Part shown: positions 30,857 to 42,253 of the stretch, piece after piece
How the letters are laid out: each line of letters begins with the position of its first letter
Numbering within the stretch: the stretch's first letter is position 1
NCBI GenBank assembly: GCA_965243145.1
Contig: CBDEUB010000002.1
Span: 878,354-942,353 of the forward strand
Origin: Bacteriovoracaceae bacterium
GTDB taxonomy: Bacteria > Bdellovibrionota > Bacteriovoracia > Bacteriovoracales > Bacteriovoracaceae
DNA: 64,000 nucleotides
Direction of reading: 5' to 3'
Program-made: the position numbers and the translations under genes
Notes under the pieces: generated by a model
What the model saw: only the letters and a program-made list of their open reading frames with translations
Databases searched by the model: none
Told to the model about the DNA's origin: nothing

Positions 30857-33850
30857 ATGCCCACAGTGCCCACCCAAGAACTGAAAAAAGATTATATCTC
30901 CCTCACAGAGGGGGAGATTCGCCACATGCTGGAAACTGTGGGGGCCAATTCCCTGGAAGAATTGTTTGCCCACATTCCCGCAGACTTGCGCTTTTCCTCG
31001 CCCCCTTCGGTGTGTTCCCACTTGCCCCGGCCACAACTGCTCTCCCACCTGCAAGACCTGGCCAACAAGAATCGACTCAAAAGCTGTTTTATCGGCGATG
31101 CCCTCAAGTGGTACAGCGTCCACCCCATCGTCTCCTTCGTTTCTGGCGTGCGCGGCCTGTCCACCGCCTACACTCCCTACCAACCAGAGCGCTGCCAGGG
31201 AACCCTCAAAAGTTTGTGGATGTACAGTTCGGCGCTTTCCCAGTTGACCGGTTTTGAGGCGATCAACGCCAGTTTTTACGAGCGCTCGACTTGTCTCTTT
31301 GAAGCGGCCAACACCGCCTTGCGGATCAAAAAAAGGGCCACCACCGTCTTGCTCTCGGAGGGGTTGCATCCCCAAGACTTGGAAGTGATGCAAACTCTGG
31401 CGGCACACACCCCCATGCGCTTGGAGACTTTCCCCCTGGATGCCCGCACAGGCCAGAGTGACCTGACGGTACTCAATGGCAAATTGGAACAGTTGGGGGA
31501 AGAGGTGGCGGCGCTGATCTACCCCCACAGCAATTGCCTGGGCCTTTTGGAGGATGTCCACCGCCTCACCGACACCGTTCACCAGCACGGTGCACTGGCG
31601 ATCGCCGTGGTCGACCCCATGTTGCTGGGGCCAGGGGGGTTGGTTCCACCCTCGCAGTACGGTGAAAAAGGGGCCGATATGCTGGTGGGAGAAGGCCAAC
31701 ACCTGGCGATTGGGCCACATTTTGGCGGCCCCGGACTGGGGGTTTTTGGCATCCGTTTCAACTCGCAAAACCGCACCGCCATCCGCGCCACCGCTGGCCG
31801 CTTCGTGGGCAAGGCCACAGATGCGCAGGGGCGCGAGTGCCTGTGCATGGTGCTCTCCACCCGGGAACAACACATCCGGCGGGAAAAAGCGACCTCCAAC
31901 ATTTGTTCCAACCAGAGTTTTTTGGCCACCCTGGCGGGGGCCTCCTTACTGGCGCGAGGGGATCGCGGCCTAGGAGAAGTCTTGGAAAAATCCCGGGTGA
32001 GAACTCTGGAGGTGGCCACGGTTATACAATCCCTGGATGGCCTCGACCTGGCCTTTCCCCACACGCCCTTTTTTAACGAGTTGTGCTTGAGTTACCGGGG
32101 CGACCTCACCCAACTCTTGCAAAGGGCCTCAATCCAGGGAATCCAACTGGGTGTCGATGTGAGCGAACGAGTCCCCGCGCCGGGGAATTACTTGCTGCTC
32201 TTTTTTAACGATGCCCAAACCGACGGCGACATTGAAAAACTCAAAACTTTTTTGGCCAGTGAACTGGGAAACGGCCAGGGCCAAGAGCAAACCTCTCCCG
32301 TCATTCCTCCGCACCTGTTGCGCCGTGAAGAGATTGGCCTGCCCTCATTTGCCGAGTCGGAATTGCAAACATTTTATAGCGAATTGGGAGAGCAAAATGT
32401 CAGCCCCGACGACCACATTTACCCCCTGGGAAGTTGTACTATGAAGTACAACCCCCTGATCAACGATTGGGCCGCCAGTCTGGAAGGGTTTACCCGGCCG
32501 CACCCCCAAGCGCCGGAAGAAGATGTGCAGGGGTGTTTGGAAATTCTCTATTACATTCAGGAGTATTTTAAGGCCATCACAGGACTTTCCGCCGTGGCCA
32601 CAGGGCCGGTGGCCGGTGCCCAGGGGGAATTGGTGGGGCTTAAAATGTTTCAGGCCTACCACCGCGATCGGGGAAACGCAGACAAAAAAAAGCTGATCCT
32701 CATCCCTCGCAGTGCCCACGGAACCAACCCCGCCACCGCCACCATGGCGGGATTCACTCCCGGCAAGACAGGAGAGGCCGCGGCGGGACTGCTCTTTGTC
32801 GATGCCGATGAGTCCGGGCAAATCGACCTCCGGCAATTCCACACCCTGATGGACGAACACGGGGAGCGGGTGGCGGGCATGATGATCACCAACCCCAACA
32901 CCGCCGGCATTTTTGAAAACCATTTCAAAGAAGTGGCCGATCGCCTGCACGCGGTGGACGCCCTGGTGTATATGGACGGGGCCAATATGAACGCTATCGC
33001 AGGCCAAGTTAATCTGGCCGCCATGGGAGTGGATGCCGTCCACAACAACCTCCACAAAACCTGGAGTATTCCCCACGGCGGCGGCGGCCCCGGCGATGCC
33101 ATCGTCGCCGTCAGTGACAAGCTGGCCGACTACCTTCCCGGGCGGCAAATCGTGCGCGAAGAGGGGGGGGCCTTTCGCTCCCACACCCCCGACAAATCCA
33201 TCGGCGACTTCCACCGCCACTGGGGCAATTTCTCCCACAAGGTGCGCGCCTACACCTACCTGCGCGCCCTGGGAGATGGGGGCATTCGCCGCATGAGCGC
33301 CATTGCCGTTCTCTCGGCCCGCTACTTGCTGGAAAAACTCAAAGGCGTCTACCCCATTCTCCCCGCCGGCGGCGGCCACATCCCGCGCATGCACGAATTT
33401 ATCATCACCATGAACCCGGCCATCTGGGACAAACTCGCTGATGCGGGCCTCTCCAAAGCGCAGGGCATGTTGCAAATCGGAAAACTCTTTTTGGACTTTG
33501 GGCCACACACTCCCACCGTGGCCTTCCCCGAACCCCACGGTTTTATGATCGAACCCACCGAATCTTTTGATCTGGCCGAACTCGACCGCTTTGCCGAAAC
33601 CCTGCGGGCGGTGGCCAAAATCCTGGTGGAAACCCCCTCTGTGCTGAACACCGCCCCCCACTTTACCCCGGTGGGCAAAATCGACGAAGTGGCGGCCAAC
33701 AAAAACCTGGTGCTCTCCGGGCCAATTCCCTCTCTGGGGGAAGTGCTCCCCAACCGCATCCCCCCCGAGCAACTCAAAACCATGCCCTTGGGCCACATTT
33801 TCGAGAAAATGCTAAGAAGCAGTCTTAAAAGTGGCCCTCGGCCAAGCTAG
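30857..33850 (+). CDS. gcvP: glycine dehydrogenase (decarboxylating), single chain with subunit-1-like then subunit-2-like halves
   Basis: The start MPTVPTQELKKDYISLTEGEIRHMLETVGANSLEELFAHIP is gcvPA-like. The mid region LLRREEIGLPSFAESELQTFYSELGEQN...YPLGSCTMKYNP is gcvPB-like. The PLP region is NLHKTWSIPHGGGGPG. Confidence 0.92.
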   Translation: MPTVPTQELKKDYISLTEGEIRHMLETVGANSLEELFAHIPADLRFSSPPSVCSHLPRPQLLSHLQDLANKNRLKSCFIGDALKWYSVHPIVSFVSGVRGLSTAYTPYQPERCQGTLKSLWMYSSALSQLTGFEAINASFYERSTCLFEAANTALRIKKRATTVLLSEGLHPQDLEVMQTLAAHTPMRLETFPLDARTGQSDLTVLNGKLEQLGEEVAALIYPHSNCLGLLEDVHRLTDTVHQHGALAIAVVDPMLLGPGGLVPPSQYGEKGADMLVGEGQHLAIGPHFGGPGLGVFGIRFNSQNRTAIRATAGRFVGKATDAQGRECLCMVLSTREQHIRREKATSNICSNQSFLATLAGASLLARGDRGLGEVLEKSRVRTLEVATVIQSLDGLDLAFPHTPFFNELCLSYRGDLTQLLQRASIQGIQLGVDVSERVPAPGNYLLLFFNDAQTDGDIEKLKTFLASELGNGQGQEQTSPVIPPHLLRREEIGLPSFAESELQTFYSELGEQNVSPDDHIYPLGSCTMKYNPLINDWAASLEGFTRPHPQAPEEDVQGCLEILYYIQEYFKAITGLSAVATGPVAGAQGELVGLKMFQAYHRDRGNADKKKLILIPRSAHGTNPATATMAGFTPGKTGEAAAGLLFVDADESGQIDLRQFHTLMDEHGERVAGMMITNPNTAGIFENHFKEVADRLHAVDALVYMDGANMNAIAGQVNLAAMGVDAVHNNLHKTWSIPHGGGGPGDAIVAVSDKLADYLPGRQIVREEGGAFRSHTPDKSIGDFHRHWGNFSHKVRAYTYLRALGDGGIRRMSAIAVLSARYLLEKLKGVYPILPAGGGHIPRMHEFIITMNPAIWDKLADAGLSKAQGMLQIGKLFLDFGPHTPTVAFPEPHGFMIEPTESFDLAELDRFAETLRAVAKILVETPSVLNTAPHFTPVGKIDEVAANKNLVLSGPIPSLGEVLPNRIPPEQLKTMPLGHIFEKMLRSSLKSGPRPS

Positions 33851-33899: not shown

Positions 33900-33984
33900 G
33901 CCGAAGTGGCGGAATGGTAGACGCAGCGGATTCAAAATCCGCCGGCCACTGGCCATGGGGGTTCAAGTCCCTTCTTCGGCACCA
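33900..33984 (+). tRNA. tRNA-Leu (anticodon CAA), CCA encoded
   Basis: The acceptor is GCCGAAG/CTTCGGC. The anticodon stem-loop is GCGGA-TTCAAAA-TCCGC. There is a long variable arm and a T-loop TTCAAGT. Confidence 0.9.
33968..33984 (+). repeat. attL core (within tRNA-Leu 3' end)
   Basis: Exact 17-bp match to 60523-60539. Confidence 0.8.
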
Positions 33985-38167: not shown

Positions 38168-38345
38168 TCAGGAGAGGGCCGGACGAACCTGGTAGCCGAT
38201 CCTTTGGCTGCCGTATTTTGATCTGATTTCCTCGATGGAACTATCGCCCTTGTAATACCCTCGCTTTTCCGATGGCGGGTGAAAGTACCACATTTGCTTT
38301 TTGCGGTTCCAATGGAAACTCGCCTGTTTGAAGGCCTCCTTATGA
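38168..38345 (-). pseudogene. C-terminal fragment of an IS-disrupted phage/plasmid-type J-domain gene
   Basis: It encodes ...(H/N)KEAFKQASFHWNRKKQMWYFHPP...IEEIRSKYGS. It joins in frame to the N-terminal fragment at 41931-42253 when the IS stack is removed. Confidence 0.7.
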
Positions 38346-39373
38346 GAAGCTGTCTTAAAAGTCCATTTTCCTATCAAATCTCCTTAGCATGAGGTGAGTC
38401 ATAGCAATATAAAGAATGGCCTTGCTTGTCTCGGGCAACCTCTCGTAATCCTTGCTGAGTCTCCTGTAGTTGAGTAACCAACCAAAAGTTCTTTCCACAA
38501 TCCAGCGTTTCCGAATAACTTTAAAACCTTTACCCTTATCTTTTCGTAAAACAATATCTATTTTTCTGCCAAAACAATATTTTGCAATTTCGACAAATGC
38601 TCCTCTATAACCTCCATCGGCCCATATAACTTTTAACCTAGAAAATAACCCCTTCATTTTATCCAAAACTAGCAGGCCACCTTCCTTGTCTTGAATACTG
38701 GCCAAGTGGACAACAACCGTCATCAGCAAACCGAGCGTATCTACCAGAATATGGCGTTTTCGGCCTTTAATTCTTTTCCCTCCATCATATCCCCTCTCTT
38801 TCCCGGCCACAGAAGTAGTTTTTACGCTTTGACTGTCGATAATGGCCGCCGATGCTTGCGATTTTTTGCCCACGCTTTTCCTAATCTTTCGCCTCAAATG
38901 ATTGTTAATTTCTTCCCAGAGTCCACGAATACGCCAGTTTCTAAAATAGGTATAAACTGTTTTCCAATGAGGGAATCCTTCGGGGAGATAACGCCAAAGG
39001 CATCCAGTTTTTACGATATAAAAAATTGCGTTGAGAATTTCTTTCAAATCATATTTTCGAGGGCGGCCATACCTCCCCGACTGAGGGATTAGTTTCCTCA
39101 ATCTTTTCCATTGTGCTTTGGTTAAATCAGACGGGTAACCTTTTCTTTGTCGGGATTTTTTTCTGGTTTTTCGCTTTCTCTTTCTGCTTTTTGAGACTTC
39201 TTTTTTAGTCGTTCTTGACACATAAACCTCCGTGGCGTTGCAATTATTGTGCGAAAAAGCAGGCCACAAAGGTTTATGTGTAGGAATATTAGGCCATGTA
39301 AAACAAAGGTTGTAAAATGAATATTTTTAAGTTTTAGGGATTGTGCGCTTAGACGAATGGACTTTTAAGACAG
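38346..39373 (-). mobile_element. IS5-family (IS427/IS1031-like) insertion sequence, 1032 bp; its last 4 bp (CTTC) are displaced to 41927-41930
   Basis: The IRs are GAAGCTGTCTTAAAAGTCCATT (38346-38367) and AATGGACTTTTAAGACAG (39356-39373) plus CTTC. The flanking triplets are TGA (38343-45) and TTA (41931-33), TNA-type with one mismatch. Confidence 0.8.
38355..39269 (-). CDS. IS5-family transposase (DUF4096 N-terminal + DDE domain)
   Basis: YPSDLTKAQWKRLRKLIP...EILNAIFYIVKTGCLWRYLPEGFPHWKTVYTYFRNW, then IIDSQSVKT, VIWADGGY and ERTFGWL. Confidence 0.9.
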   Translation of the reverse strand: MWPAFSHNNCNATEVYVSRTTKKEVSKSRKRKRKTRKKSRQRKGYPSDLTKAQWKRLRKLIPQSGRYGRPRKYDLKEILNAIFYIVKTGCLWRYLPEGFPHWKTVYTYFRNWRIRGLWEEINNHLRRKIRKSVGKKSQASAAIIDSQSVKTTSVAGKERGYDGGKRIKGRKRHILVDTLGLLMTVVVHLASIQDKEGGLLVLDKMKGLFSRLKVIWADGGYRGAFVEIAKYCFGRKIDIVLRKDKGKGFKVIRKRWIVERTFGWLLNYRRLSKDYERLPETSKAILYIAMTHLMLRRFDRKMDF

Positions 39374-39417
39374 AAATAATGGATGACCGCCCTTTTTAAC
39401 CGGGGACTGGTTACCCC

Positions 39418-40503
39418 GGCCTTGTTGCGTAAATGAGGCAGGTTAAAGCGTTGAAATAAGAGGAAAATGCCGGCATCCTATATTTTGGAAAAAAGCAAGG
39501 AGGCCGGCGATGTCAAAGGTAGCATATAAAATCCAAAATTGGAGTCAATATAATCGTGCCCTCATCAATCGAGGCAATATCACCCTATGGTTTAATGAGG
39601 ATGCCATCCAATCCTGGTTTGCTGACACGGAAAGTCGGAAAGGGAGGCCATATTTTTTTAGCGAAACTTGCATCCTCTTATGCCTCACCCTCCGCGCTCG
39701 ATTCAACCTTCCCCTGCGCACCACTCAAGGTTTGATTGAAGGACTCTTTGAACAGTTGGGTTTGGCGCTACCTGTGCCCAGCTATACCCAGCTTTGCCGT
39801 CGCTCCAGCAGTATCAAAATTCCCTCCAAGGCCAAGAATATCCGCAGGCCTATTAATGTTGTGGTGGATTCCACTGGCCTTAAAGTGTACGGGGAAGGGG
39901 AATGGAAAATGAGGATTCATGGGAAATCGAAAAGGCGGACTTGGCGCAAGCTGCATTTGGCAGTGAATCCCCAATCGTTTGAGATAGTGTCGATGGAATT
40001 AACAGAGTCAAATAGAACGGATGGAAAAACGCTTCCGAGTTTGATTAAAGATATTCCCCAAATTAAAGAAGCGTTTGCGGATGCGGCGTATATGTATAGG
40101 GAATGTTTTGAGTCGATAGATGCCAAAGGAGGGAAGGCGATTATTGATTTGCGAGGGGGAACTTCGCTGGCGCGAGCGCCTACGCCAGGTTTGGCACAGA
40201 GGAATAGGATAGTGAGAGAACTTTGGGAGAGTTCGAGTAAGAGGAGTTGGAAGAAGAGAGTGGGTTATCACAGGCGGAGTTTAGTGGAAACCCAGATGTT
40301 CCGCTTTAAAAAGCTGCTAGGGCCTTCGCTGTTGTCGAGGAAGATGGCCACCCAGGTGGCGGAAGCAGAGATAAAGACGATGGTGCTGAATTGTATGACT
40401 CGTCTCGGAATGCCTCGGACTATGGCCATTCCCACTGGATAGCAAAATTTTTCCTTTCCTGTGGGGCCTCCGCAACTCTAATCCCGATTTATGCAACAAG
40501 GCC
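39418..40503 (+). mobile_element. IS5-family, IS903-group insertion sequence (1086 bp)
   Basis: The terminal IRs are GGCCTTGTTGCGTAAAT and GGCCTTGTTGCATAAAT. As I remember it, this is close to the IS903 IR GGCTTTGTTGAATAAAT. A perfect 9-bp TSD GGTTACCCC lies at 39409-39417 and 40504-40512. Confidence 0.9.
39510..40442 (+). CDS. IS903-group DDE transposase
   Basis: 310 aa. YKIQNWSQYNRALINRGNITLWF, VVDSTGLKVYGEGEWK, AYMYRECF and SLVETQMFRFKKL. Confidence 0.9.
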   Translation: MSKVAYKIQNWSQYNRALINRGNITLWFNEDAIQSWFADTESRKGRPYFFSETCILLCLTLRARFNLPLRTTQGLIEGLFEQLGLALPVPSYTQLCRRSSSIKIPSKAKNIRRPINVVVDSTGLKVYGEGEWKMRIHGKSKRRTWRKLHLAVNPQSFEIVSMELTESNRTDGKTLPSLIKDIPQIKEAFADAAYMYRECFESIDAKGGKAIIDLRGGTSLARAPTPGLAQRNRIVRELWESSSKRSWKKRVGYHRRSLVETQMFRFKKLLGPSLLSRKMATQVAEAEIKTMVLNCMTRLGMPRTMAIPTG

Positions 40504-40529
40504 GGTTACCCCATGTAAAAGTCTGAATA

Positions 40530-41672
40530 ATGGACTTTTACAAACCCAAAAGGAGGGCCATCCAAATGAAAAATGTACTTTATGTGGGATTAGATGTCGA
40601 CGACAAGTCTTTTCACGGAGGGGGATTCTGTGAAGCAACAGGAGAAACTTTGGAATTTAAATGCAAGGCAACAAACGCCAAATTACTGGGAAAACTCAAA
40701 AAACTCGAAGGCCAAGGATTTCAGTTGAAAACCTGCCATGAAGCAAGTTACATGGGCAATTCCCTTCACCGCTATTTAATCTCCAAGGGGATCGATAGCA
40801 CGATCATTGCGCCTTCGATGATTCCCGAGTTAGCGAGCGGACGGGTGAAAACCGATCGAGTCGATAGCAACAAACTTGCCAAGTATTTTGCAAAAGGACT
40901 TTTAACGCCCGTTTATATTCCTGACAAAGTTGACGAACAGGCCAGAGACATTATCCGCTCCCGTAGATTTTTTGTTGAGCAACGAAAATCTCTAAAAAAT
41001 CACATTGTATCGACTTTAAAGCGATACGGACTCAAATATAATGAAGGCGGGGAAAACAAGTCATATTGGACAATTTCGCATATGGCGTGGATTCGCAGGG
41101 AAATAAAAACTTTGGACGACTCAGGCAGGATAAATCTGGAATTTCTTCTTGGGCAATGTGAAAGGATGAATGACTGTATTGAGGAATACGATAAAAAAAT
41201 CGAAGAATTGTCGGAACTGAAAAGGTATAAAAAGAAAAAAAATGCTCTTACTTGTTTTAGAGGTATAAGCACTTTTTCTGCAATGGCGTTGATAACGGAG
41301 ATTGGAGATATTGAAAGATTTTCCCACCCATCGAAACTTGTTTCGTACGCTGGCCTGGATGTCAGTGAATACAGTTCTGGTGGAAAGGAAAAGAAATTTG
41401 GAATAACAAAAATGGGGAATCGTTGGATAAGAACGACGATTGTTGAAAGCAGTCAATTCTCGGGGCGGATATGCCAGATAAGCAAAAGATTAAAAGAGGC
41501 CAGGAAAGGCCAATCGAAAGCAATAGTTGCCATTGCGGATAAATGCATGAAGAGACTACGAAAAAAATCTGTAAGACTTCAAAATATGAACAAACATAGC
41601 AATAAAGTGAAAGTTGCCTGTGCAAGAGAGCACCTGTGTTTTGTCTGGGAGGCACTCAACGCAGCGGCCTGA
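40530..41672 (+). CDS. IS110-family transposase, copy 2
   Basis: It differs from copy 1 by two residues (V>I and M>V near the C-terminus). The likely true start is 40566. Confidence 0.92.
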   Translation: MDFYKPKRRAIQMKNVLYVGLDVDDKSFHGGGFCEATGETLEFKCKATNAKLLGKLKKLEGQGFQLKTCHEASYMGNSLHRYLISKGIDSTIIAPSMIPELASGRVKTDRVDSNKLAKYFAKGLLTPVYIPDKVDEQARDIIRSRRFFVEQRKSLKNHIVSTLKRYGLKYNEGGENKSYWTISHMAWIRREIKTLDDSGRINLEFLLGQCERMNDCIEEYDKKIEELSELKRYKKKKNALTCFRGISTFSAMALITEIGDIERFSHPSKLVSYAGLDVSEYSSGGKEKKFGITKMGNRWIRTTIVESSQFSGRICQISKRLKEARKGQSKAIVAIADKCMKRLRKKSVRLQNMNKHSNKVKVACAREHLCFVWEALNAAA

Positions 41673-41924
41673 AATAATATTAACTGATGACAGTTCCGGT
41701 TTAAAGGAGAAGATAAGGATTTTTTGAGAATTTAAGAACCATGATGTGGTGAAACCCTCGGTAAAGAAGCTTGGTTAAAGTTTCCGATCACAGATAGAGG
41801 ATAACACCGCTCGAACCAAGCTTAATGCGTTAACCAGCACGCGAATATGAGGTTGGAAGTCAAAGGAACTCATAAATTTCTTAAAAAAAACGAATTTTCT
41901 TCTTGCCGGGCGGTCATCCATATG
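41673..41924 (+). ncRNA. candidate IS1111-type bridge/seek guide RNA region of copy 2
   Basis: Same as in copy 1. The target-like segment is at 41762-41780 and the stem is at 41767-41776 and 41813-41822. Confidence 0.45.
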
Positions 41925-41930
41925 AGCTTC

Positions 41931-42253
41931 TTAGGGAAGGTGTTGCCAGACACCCACACCCAAGAGCCGCAAACTTCAATGTTGATGCCAGCCAGATGGA
42001 CGATGGCATTGAGTGCCTGATTCAGCGCCTCGCCGTAGTCGCTGAAGTTTTGGTCGCCGTAGATGGTGAGAGGAAACCGCTCTTGTTTCAGTGTCTCAAA
42101 GGCCTCATTGACCGCCTTCATAATGGCCAAACCAGCAGGGTTCACATCGGGGTGATACTTTTTGCAGGCCTTGCGATAGGCACTTTTCACTTCTTCATAA
42201 GTTACTCGTGCCTGGTTGATGGAGAGGATGTTGAGCGAGTCTAGGAGTTTCAT
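41931..42253 (-). pseudogene. N-terminal fragment (J domain) of the IS-disrupted J-domain gene
   Basis: MKLLDSLNILSINQARVTYEEVKSAYRKACKKYHPDVNPAG...CGSWVWVSGNTFP. The ORF then runs into IS sequence (KKLIWMTARQ...). Confidence 0.75.

What the first reader, a model, noticed from the sequence alone, without database searches (positions are those of the whole stretch)
41673..41926. Candidate bridge/seek guide RNA in the 252-bp 3' non-coding end of the IS, containing a near-copy of the insertion target
Layout of the element:
- The left end has only ~97 bp before the likely start codon.
- The right end has 252 bp after the stop codon.
- 14-bp subterminal IRs (ATGGATGACCGCCC) lie 5 nt from each tip.

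Sequence features of the 3' segment:
- It contains TAAAGAAGCTTGGTTAAAG (41762-41780). The target strand reads TAAGAAGCTGTCTTAAAAG, so AAGAAGCT and TTAAA match, spaced by 3 nt and straddling the CT core.
- This segment is embedded in a 10-bp stem (AAGCTTGGTT at 41767-76 and AACCAAGCTT at 41813-22).
- A second short match, ATATGAG (41845-51), equals the last 7 nt of the right end.

Established knowledge: IS110-family recombinases use an element-encoded guide RNA. As I recall from the 2024 bridge RNA and seekRNA reports, it is placed 3' of the gene in the IS1111 group.

Inference: this region encodes the guide and explains the target specificity. The short matches could be chance.
Basis: partly seen in the sequence, partly recalled or inferred. 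Interest (0 to 1): 0.68.

Follow-up and report, generated by a model that had tools for sequence, protein, structure and literature searches.

The report
Guide RNA of an IS1111-type element
The non-coding stretch after the transposase gene of this insertion sequence most likely encodes a known kind of guide RNA (seekRNA/bridge RNA) that base-pairs with the insertion site, here the end repeat of another mobile element; this is a new subfamily, not a new mechanism.

Summary
The window has two copies of a ~1.46-kb IS1111-type element: A at 11097-12556 (-) and B at 39372-41926 (+). B is interrupted by an IS5-family element.

A covariance model built from relatives matches 41731-41882 (+), 126 bits, and 11141-11292 (-), 116 bits. 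In 82 distinct family RNAs, five helices are 91% paired, against 31-44% when partners are slid. Thirteen pairs show compensatory changes.

Guide segments:
It tracks each element's own right flank (z=17).
- AUAUGAG (41845-51) equals the right-end tip in 61 of 66 elements, across three sequence variants.
- A relative with a 92% identical transposase differs almost only at the two target guides, which match its own flanks.

Wrong in detail:
- TTAAA lies in a hairpin loop that most relatives share (TTAAAG-like), so it is not a guide.
- The 10-bp stem is not conserved (30% paired, like controls).
- The 8-nt match alone occurs in 18% of shuffles.
- The ~97-bp left end describes copy A, not copy B.

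The target is the terminal inverted repeat of an IS5-family element and of a related MITE-like element. No transcript data exist. This is a new member of a known kind.

The parts
39372..41926 (+). Copy B of the IS1111-type element, counting the AG core at both ends. It is interrupted by a nested IS5-family element at 39418-40503.
   Evidence: Subterminal repeats. Alignment to copy A after removing the nested element shows 10 differences in 1431 bp. Coordinates checked.
11097..12556 (-). Copy A, the intact element of 1460 bp with both AG cores. The transposase gene is at 11351-12457.
40566..41672 (+). Transposase gene of copy B, 368 aa, a DEDD-type IS110-family enzyme.
   Evidence: PF01548 plus PF02371. 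NCBIfam NF033542 'IS110 family RNA-guided transposase', 187 bits against a cutoff of 140.
41731..41882 (+). Predicted guide RNA (seekRNA/bridge RNA) of copy B: the extent of the covariance-model match.
   Evidence: Model R1: 125.6 bits, E=2e-26. Helices supported.
11141..11292 (-). The same RNA in copy A. It carries C->A at 11181, which breaks the G-C closing pair of hairpin P4 that is otherwise invariant.
   Evidence: 116.4 bits. That pair is G-C in 77 family RNAs, with one exception.
41764..41771 (+). 5' target guide AAGAAGCU. It pairs with top-strand AGCTTCTT, that is core AG plus six bases of the right flank.
   Evidence: Direct reading. Family covariation z=17. Replaced in the 92% relative.
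41790..41793 (+). 3' target guide ACAG. It equals the last two bases of the left flank plus core AG, so it pairs with the bottom strand.
   Evidence: Flank positions -1 and -2 match in 94% and 87% of elements, against 44-46% expected. CAC is TGG in the relative, which matches that relative's flank.
41746..41810 (+). Helices P1 (41746-51 with 41805-10) and P2 (41756-59 with 41797-800), which close the target-binding loop. A weak P3 (41772-74 with 41784-86) sits between the two guides.
   Evidence: The third pair of P2 occurs as A-U, U-A, G-C and C-G.
41732..41825 (+). Long-range helix P0: TTAAG (41732-36) with CTTAA (41821-25).
   Evidence: Helix 1 is 95% paired. Relatives show GTAAG/CTTAC and GAAG/CTTC variants.
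41827..41842 (+). Hairpin P4, GCGU-UAACCAGC-ACGC. It lies inside the 23-nt block CTTAATGCGTTAACCAGCACGCG, which is almost invariant across the family.
   Evidence: The block is found with at most 5 mismatches in 95 of 117 loci. P4 is 99% paired.
41845..41851 (+). Donor guide AUAUGAG, identical to the right-end tip (41920-26).
   Evidence: RNA 7-mer equals the tip 7-mer in 61 of 66 elements, across the variants ATATGAG, ATACGAG and ATAAAAG.
41908..41926 (+). Right subterminal repeat (41908-21) and right tip ATG plus AG (41922-26).
39372..39417 (+). Left end of copy B: AG, tip AAATA, subterminal repeat 39379-92, and hairpin GGGG-ACTGGTTA-CCCC at 39402-17.
39356..39371 (+). Inner part of the target of copy B. 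Together with AG and 41927-31 it forms the 23-bp right terminal repeat of an IS5-family element whose left repeat is at 38345-67.
   Evidence: Perfect 23-bp inverted repeat AGAAGCTGTCTTAAAAGTCCATT.

Best explanation
The 3' non-coding end of this IS1111-type insertion sequence encodes a structured RNA of about 150 nt, made from the transposase strand. The RNA is probably bound by the element's DEDD transposase and tells it where to insert.

Shown by sequence comparison:
- Helix P2 closes a loop that holds two short guides separated by a small hairpin.
- The 5' guide AAGAAGCU pairs with the top strand of the target: core AG plus CTTCTT to its right.
- The 3' guide ACAG repeats the top strand left of and including the core, so it pairs with the bottom strand.
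- Together they specify about 10 bp, ACAGCTTCTT. In this genome that sequence is the outer part of the terminal inverted repeat of an IS5-family element and of a related MITE-like element. Both copies of the element sit there in the same orientation.
- A second module, an almost invariant hairpin followed by AUAUGAG, repeats the right-end tip and tracks it across the family.

Inferred from published IS1111/IS110 work, not shown here:
- The RNA is transcribed and processed from the transposase transcript.
- It binds the transposase.
- The AUAUGAG module recognises the donor.
- Recombination occurs at the AG core through a circular intermediate.
For: Element type:
- 14-bp subterminal repeats, 7-bp and 3-bp tips, and a long non-coding end 3' of the gene.
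- The transposase passes NF033542.

RNA:
- Model R1 hits both copies, on the transposase strand only, and hits 83 places in related loci.
- 91.3% of cells are paired, against 31-44% in slid controls. There are 13 pairs and 186 cells with changes on both sides. None of 500 shuffles reaches the observed values.
- G-U pairs in P0 and P1 fit only the + strand.
- The + strand fold has z=-4.67 and the - strand z=-1.1.

Guides:
- 5' guide against the reverse complement of core plus right flank: 6.55 of 9 matches, null 4.51, z=17, 0 of 2000 permutations reach it.
- 3' guide against the left flank: z=12.8.
- Within one clade whose scaffolds are nearly identical, at least seven different 5' guides each match their own flank. 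Examples are L051, L053, L055, L060, L063.
- The relative with a 92% identical transposase (L001-3, L014) differs in the non-coding region almost only at 41762-79 and 41789-91, and fits its own flanks.

Donor guide:
- 61 of 66 identical, including a reversal inside one clade (L071).

Within the window:
- The three unoccupied copies of the repeat each have one mismatch at a guide-contacting position. The two occupied copies have none.
Against: - No transcript or protein-binding data are available.
- No promoter-like or terminator-like site was found on the + strand in 41500-41960.
- The left guide is only 2 nt plus the core in this element.
- No RNA segment that pairs with the left-end tip was found in the family, so the full two-loop bridge RNA picture is not demonstrated.
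- Hairpin P3 is nearly lost in this element and in its closest relative.
- Related sequences are not independent, so the z-scores overstate the number of independent events.
- The model does not match IS5075, and Rfam has no hit. Similarity to characterised seekRNAs is therefore in layout only.
Confidence: 0.87

Rival explanations
1. The conserved 3' end acts only as DNA. It would hold transposase-binding sites near the right end, and the short matches to the target would be chance or leftovers of the insertion site.
For: - The 8-nt match alone is not significant: 18% of shuffles reach it.
- The P4 loop motif also occurs in the left end on the other strand, as binding sites in inverted repeats would.
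- A third copy of the subterminal repeat overlies the start codon.
Against: - Compensatory changes keep five helices.
- G-U pairs work only on the + strand.
- The guides change with the flanks while the scaffold stays the same. A fixed protein-binding site would not behave this way.
Confidence: 0.05
2. The RNA is a target-only seekRNA. It selects the target and the flanks at excision. Both element ends are recognised by the protein through the subterminal repeats, and AUAUGAG is merely part of a terminator-like hairpin (UAUGAG with CUCAUA, 41846-51 with 41869-74).
For: - No left-end guide was found.
- UAUGAG can pair with CUCAUA, followed by a U-rich run in many relatives.
- The seekRNA paper describes only target matches for IS1111-type elements (PMC11187229).
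Against: - AUAUGAG tracks the right-end tip through three variants.
- The proposed hairpin is only 48% paired across the family.
- Durrant et al. report donor-binding nucleotides in IS1111 RNAs (PMC11208160).
Confidence: 0.2
3. One reading: a single near-copy of the target (AAGAAGCT...TTAAA) held in a 10-bp stem is the guide.
For: The stem is perfect in this element. About 0.03 such stems are expected in 254 nt (own estimate).
Against: - The stem is 30% paired in the family, the same as slid controls. It is absent in the 92% relative.
- TTAAAG-like loops are kept by most relatives despite unrelated targets.
- Copy A's flank reads TTGAAAAG, not TTAAAAG.
- The stem arises because AAGCTT is its own complement.
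Confidence: 0.03

Closest known systems
seekRNA of IS1111-family elements (ISEc11, ISPa11, ISKpn4; Siddiquee et al. 2024, PMC11187229)
   Same: - Encoded in the long non-coding region 3' of the transposase gene.
- The element has subterminal inverted repeats with 7-bp and 3-bp tips.
- Two short target matches, with the top-strand match 5' of the bottom-strand match, overlapping at the insertion point.
- Close relatives are naturally redirected by changes in the guides only.
- No internal promoter is evident.
   Different: - The transposase is only about 22% identical to IS5075/IS4321 and is longer: 368 aa against 330-350 aa.
- The GL-P----SG motif reads GLDVSEYSSG.
- The RNA sequence is unrelated at the level a covariance model can detect.
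- Nothing here has been tested experimentally.
Bridge RNA of IS110-family elements (IS621; Durrant et al. 2024, PMC11208160; Hiraizumi et al. 2024, PMC11208158)
   Same: - A guide loop closed by a helix, with guides for both DNA strands and a shared core dinucleotide (AG here, CT on the other strand).
- A separate segment that matches the donor.
   Different: - The RNA lies in the right end, not the left end.
- The donor part sits in a multi-helix junction rather than a simple internal loop. Durrant et al. already noted this for many IS1111 members.
- Only the right-end half of donor recognition could be shown.
[quoted passage not shown]
   Same: An IS1111-type element that targets a fixed position, in one orientation, inside the terminal inverted repeat of another mobile element.
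   Different: The host repeat belongs to an IS5-family element and a MITE-like derivative, not to a Tn3-family transposon.

Membership tests
IS110 family, IS1111 group (the element) | DEDD transposase with the PF01548 N-terminal and PF02371 C-terminal domains | tested here: met
   Pfam E=3.5e-11 and 8e-17. NF033542 scores 187 bits against a cutoff of 140.
IS110 family, IS1111 group (the element) | Subterminal inverted repeats of 7-17 bp, set in from the tips | tested here: met
   14-bp repeats lie 7 bp from the left tip and 3 bp from the right tip, counting one AG.
IS110 family, IS1111 group (the element) | The long non-coding region lies downstream of the transposase gene | tested here: met
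   254 bp lie 3' of the gene and about 100 bp lie 5' in the intact copy A.
IS110 family, IS1111 group (the element) | Transposase related over its full length to that of IS1111, and placement in the IS1111 clade | tested here: inconclusive
   Only 22% identity to IS5075/IS4321 over residues 1-297. No tree was built and ISfinder was not available.
IS110 family, IS1111 group (the element) | No target-site duplication beyond the shared core; site-specific and orientation-specific insertion | tested here: met
   Both copies lie at the same position and orientation in the ...ACAG|CTTCTT... repeat, and only AG is shared.
seekRNA / bridge RNA | Conserved secondary structure in the non-coding end | tested here: met
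   91% paired, 13 pairs with compensatory change, 0 of 500 shuffles reach the observed values.
seekRNA / bridge RNA | Guide segments complementary to both strands of the target, changing together with the target | tested here: met
   z=17 for the right flank and z=12.8 for the left flank. Natural reprogramming seen.
seekRNA / bridge RNA | Guide segments for both halves of the donor (the joined ends) | tested here: inconclusive
   The right-end guide is supported: 61 of 66. No left-end guide was found.
seekRNA / bridge RNA | The RNA is transcribed and co-purifies with the transposase | not testable with these tools
   No expression data. No promoter-like site on the + strand.
seekRNA / bridge RNA | Match to a curated RNA family model | tested here: not met
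   No Rfam 15 hit in the region even at E<=10. The library appears to hold no model that covers this subfamily.

The most novel reading that the evidence does not exclude
In this subfamily the donor may be read in a mixed way. The RNA would read only the right-end tip. The left end would be recognised through a hairpin (39402-17) that presents, on the opposite strand, the same loop motif as RNA hairpin P4, together with three copies of the subterminal repeat, one of them over the start codon. The transposase would then use one hairpin-binding surface for both RNA and DNA. Alternatively, the left-end hairpin in the mRNA leader could contact the guide RNA to couple translation to guide supply.
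Probability: 0.15. Interest if true: 0.6.

Novelty: new member of a known kind. Interest (0 to 1): 0.33.

Why it matters
- It gives an uncurated subfamily of RNA-guided IS1111-type elements, from Bdellovibrionota and diverse sediment and marine metagenomes, with a well-defined RNA scaffold.
- It supplies dozens of natural guide/target pairs, which could be used to derive targeting rules or to choose compact recombinases for engineering.
- It explains why the element sits in the end repeats of another insertion sequence.
- It adds no new mechanism.

Tried and rejected
- Rfam search at gathering threshold and at E<=10: nothing in the region.
- RNAalifold on a plain MAFFT alignment found only P4, because the helices were misaligned. 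I set the structure by hand and checked it on a model-based alignment.
- A second seed alignment (A3) was no better and was dropped.
- Look-up of the exact transposase sequence in public assemblies: not on record.
- Search for a left-end guide by 6-8-nt matches to the reverse complement of the left tip: no consistent position. The ATTTCT at 41877-82 is shared only with the closest relative.
- Column-by-column correlation with end positions is dominated by clade effects. CTT at 41821-23 is better explained as part of helix P0 than as a left-end guide.
- Helices P5 (GAAC/GTTC) and P6 (UAUGAG/CUCAUA): weak, 66% and 48% paired, so not claimed.
- Loop-loop pairing between the left-end hairpin and P4: loop variants on one side are never compensated on the other.
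- Model R1 on IS5075: no hit.

Full report
**What is there.** The pattern ATGGATGACCGCCC occurs four times exactly, plus once with 2 mismatches, against 0.6 hits expected. The four exact copies bound two copies of one element.
- Copy A (11097-12556, - strand) is intact.
- Copy B (39372-41926, + strand) is the one in the finding. It carries a nested IS5-family element at 39418-40503 with a 9-bp duplication GGTTACCCC.
- Once the nested element is removed, A and B differ at 10 of 1431 positions. Nine differences cluster in the 3' end of the transposase gene and one lies in the non-coding end.
- The gene (40566-41672, 368 aa) has PF01548 and PF02371 and passes NCBIfam NF033542, 'IS110 family RNA-guided transposase'.
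- Both ends carry AG: left ...GAC|AG|AAATA-ATGGATGACC, right GGTCATCCAT-ATG|AG|CTTCTT. Relatives have the same ends. AG is therefore the shared core, and the tips are 7 bp and 3 bp beyond the repeats, as described for IS1111-type elements (PMC11187229).

**Checking the observation.**
- The quoted strings are at the quoted places, except that one stem arm is at 41814-23.
- The '97 bp' left end fits copy A only.
- An 8-nt match between the non-coding end and the target occurs in 18% of shuffles, so it proves nothing by itself.
- The + strand folds unusually well (z=-4.67) and the - strand does not (z=-1.1).
- Rfam has no match.

**Relatives.**
- The transposase has 808 homologues.
- I fetched 37 loci from genomes, mostly Bacteriovoracaceae and other Bdellovibrionota MAGs, and 80 from metagenomes.
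- The proteins are mostly 45-65% identical to the query. Even so, the 23-nt block CTTAATGCGTTAACCAGCACGCG lies 3' of the gene in 95 of 117 loci.

**Structure.**
- A covariance model built from 51 sequences with a hand-set structure hits 41731-41882 (+) at 125.6 bits and 11141-11292 (-) at 116.4 bits. Apart from one marginal hit at 12478-12554 (+), 11.4 bits and E=0.39, it hits nothing else in the window.
- It also hits 83 places in the loci.
- On that alignment the five helices (P0-P4) are 91.3% paired, against 31-44% when partners are slid.
- Thirteen pairs and 186 cells show changes on both sides, and no shuffle reaches the observed values.
- One P2 pair occurs as A-U, U-A, G-C and C-G.
- This alignment was fitted to the structure, which favours it. 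The slid controls and the number of pair types still argue for real helices.

**Guides.**
- The closest relative (L001-L003, L014; 92% identical protein) sits in different flanks (...TTTGG|AG|GTCGAG...). Its non-coding end differs from the window's almost only at 41762-79 (AAAGAAGCTTGGTTAAAG against CAAACGACCTTGACCCAG) and at 41789-91 (CAC against TGG). Both changes fit its own flanks.
- Across the family the 5' guide matches the reverse complement of core plus right flank at 6.55 of 9 positions, against a null of 4.51 (z=17, 0 of 2000 permutations).
- The bases before the conserved AG match the left flank at positions -1 and -2 in 94% and 87% of elements (null 44-46%), and at -3 and -4 in about 60% (null 30%). 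Summed over positions -6 to -1 this gives z=12.8.
- In one clade whose scaffolds are nearly identical, at least seven different guides each match their own flank over 7-9 nt.
- For the window element, AAGAAGCU (41764-71) pairs with AGCTTCTT, and ACAG (41790-93) repeats AC plus AG.

**Donor.**
- AUAUGAG (41845-51) equals the right-end tip.
- RNA and tip are identical in 61 of 66 elements across ATATGAG, ATACGAG and ATAAAAG. This includes one element (L071) that reverted in both places within the ATACGAG clade.
- I found no guide for the left-end tip.

- TTAAA lies in the P3 loop. Most relatives have a TTAAAG-like loop there despite unrelated targets.
- The 10-bp stem is 30% paired in the family, no better than controls, and is absent from the 92% relative.

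**Target.**
- The motif CTAAGAAGCTGTNTNAAAAGT occurs three more times in the window, against 0.02 expected.
- Copy B lies inside the right 23-bp terminal repeat of an IS5-family element. That element's left repeat is at 38345-67, and its transposase gene at 38355-39269 matches NF033580.
- Copy A lies inside one repeat of a ~190-bp MITE-like element with similar ends.
- The long similarity of the two left flanks is therefore the host repeat, not RNA recognition.
- Each unoccupied repeat has one mismatch to the 5' guide, at flank position +6 or in the core.
- Targeting the end repeat of another mobile element is known for IS4321/IS5075.

**Comparison with known systems and verdict.**
- The layout, guide order and natural reprogramming match IS1111 seekRNAs (PMC11187229) and the IS1111 bridge RNAs predicted by Durrant et al. 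(PMC11208160).
- Protein identity to IS5075/IS4321 is about 22%, and the RNA model does not hit IS5075.
- This is a distinct, uncurated subfamily working by a known mechanism.
- Transcription, protein binding and catalysis are inferred, not shown.

Noticed in passing
38345-41931: Three mobile elements are nested. An IS5-family element (ends at 38345-67 and at 39356-71 plus 41927-31) carries IS1111-type copy B in its right repeat. Copy B in turn carries a second, different IS5-family element (39418-40503, 9-bp duplication GGTTACCCC).
   Followed up: yes
11092-11098 plus 12557-12726: A ~190-bp MITE-like element has 24-bp inverted repeats (one mismatch) resembling those of the IS5-family element at 38345. 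Copy A is inserted in its left repeat.
   Followed up: partly
39402-39417 (copy A: about 12511-12526): The left end has a hairpin GGGG-ACTGGTTA-CCCC. Its loop is the reverse complement of the P4 loop UAACCAG of the guide RNA. Stems covary across the family (14 stem types, 42 of 69 left ends). Loop variants are never compensated between the two hairpins, so it looks like the same motif on opposite strands rather than a pairing partner. The nested IS5-family element inserted at the 3' end of this hairpin (the 9-bp duplication is its 3' half).
   Followed up: partly
40556-40564: A third copy of the subterminal repeat, in right-end orientation (GGCCATCCA), overlies the ribosome-binding site and start codon. 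In 57 of 69 family left ends it is within one mismatch of the reverse complement of the left repeat, and it changes together with it. It could be a binding site for autoregulation, or it could pair with the left repeat in read-through transcripts to block translation.
   Followed up: partly
11181 (- strand): The guide RNA of copy A has C->A at the closing G-C pair of hairpin P4. This is the only exception among 78 family sequences. The intact element may therefore have a weakened RNA, while interrupted copy B keeps the consensus RNA.
   Followed up: partly
41602-41653 and 11370-11421: Nine of the ten differences between copies A and B fall within 52 bp of the transposase 3' end and are mostly synonymous. 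In this stretch copy B resembles the 92% relative. This suggests gene conversion with another variant.
   Followed up: no
33812-33832, next to tRNA 33900-33981: A solitary copy of the IS5-type end repeat (CTAAGAAGCAGTCTTAAAAGT) lies about 70 bp upstream of a tRNA gene. No partner repeat was found between 30000 and 38000.
   Followed up: partly
L001-L003, L014 (contig CBDCDT010000002.1): Four copies of the 92% relative share left flanks in pairs and right flanks in different pairs. In two copies a 13-bp segment GTCRAGAATATAG sits between the right end and a GTTTTRC motif. This suggests rearrangements between copies.
   Followed up: no
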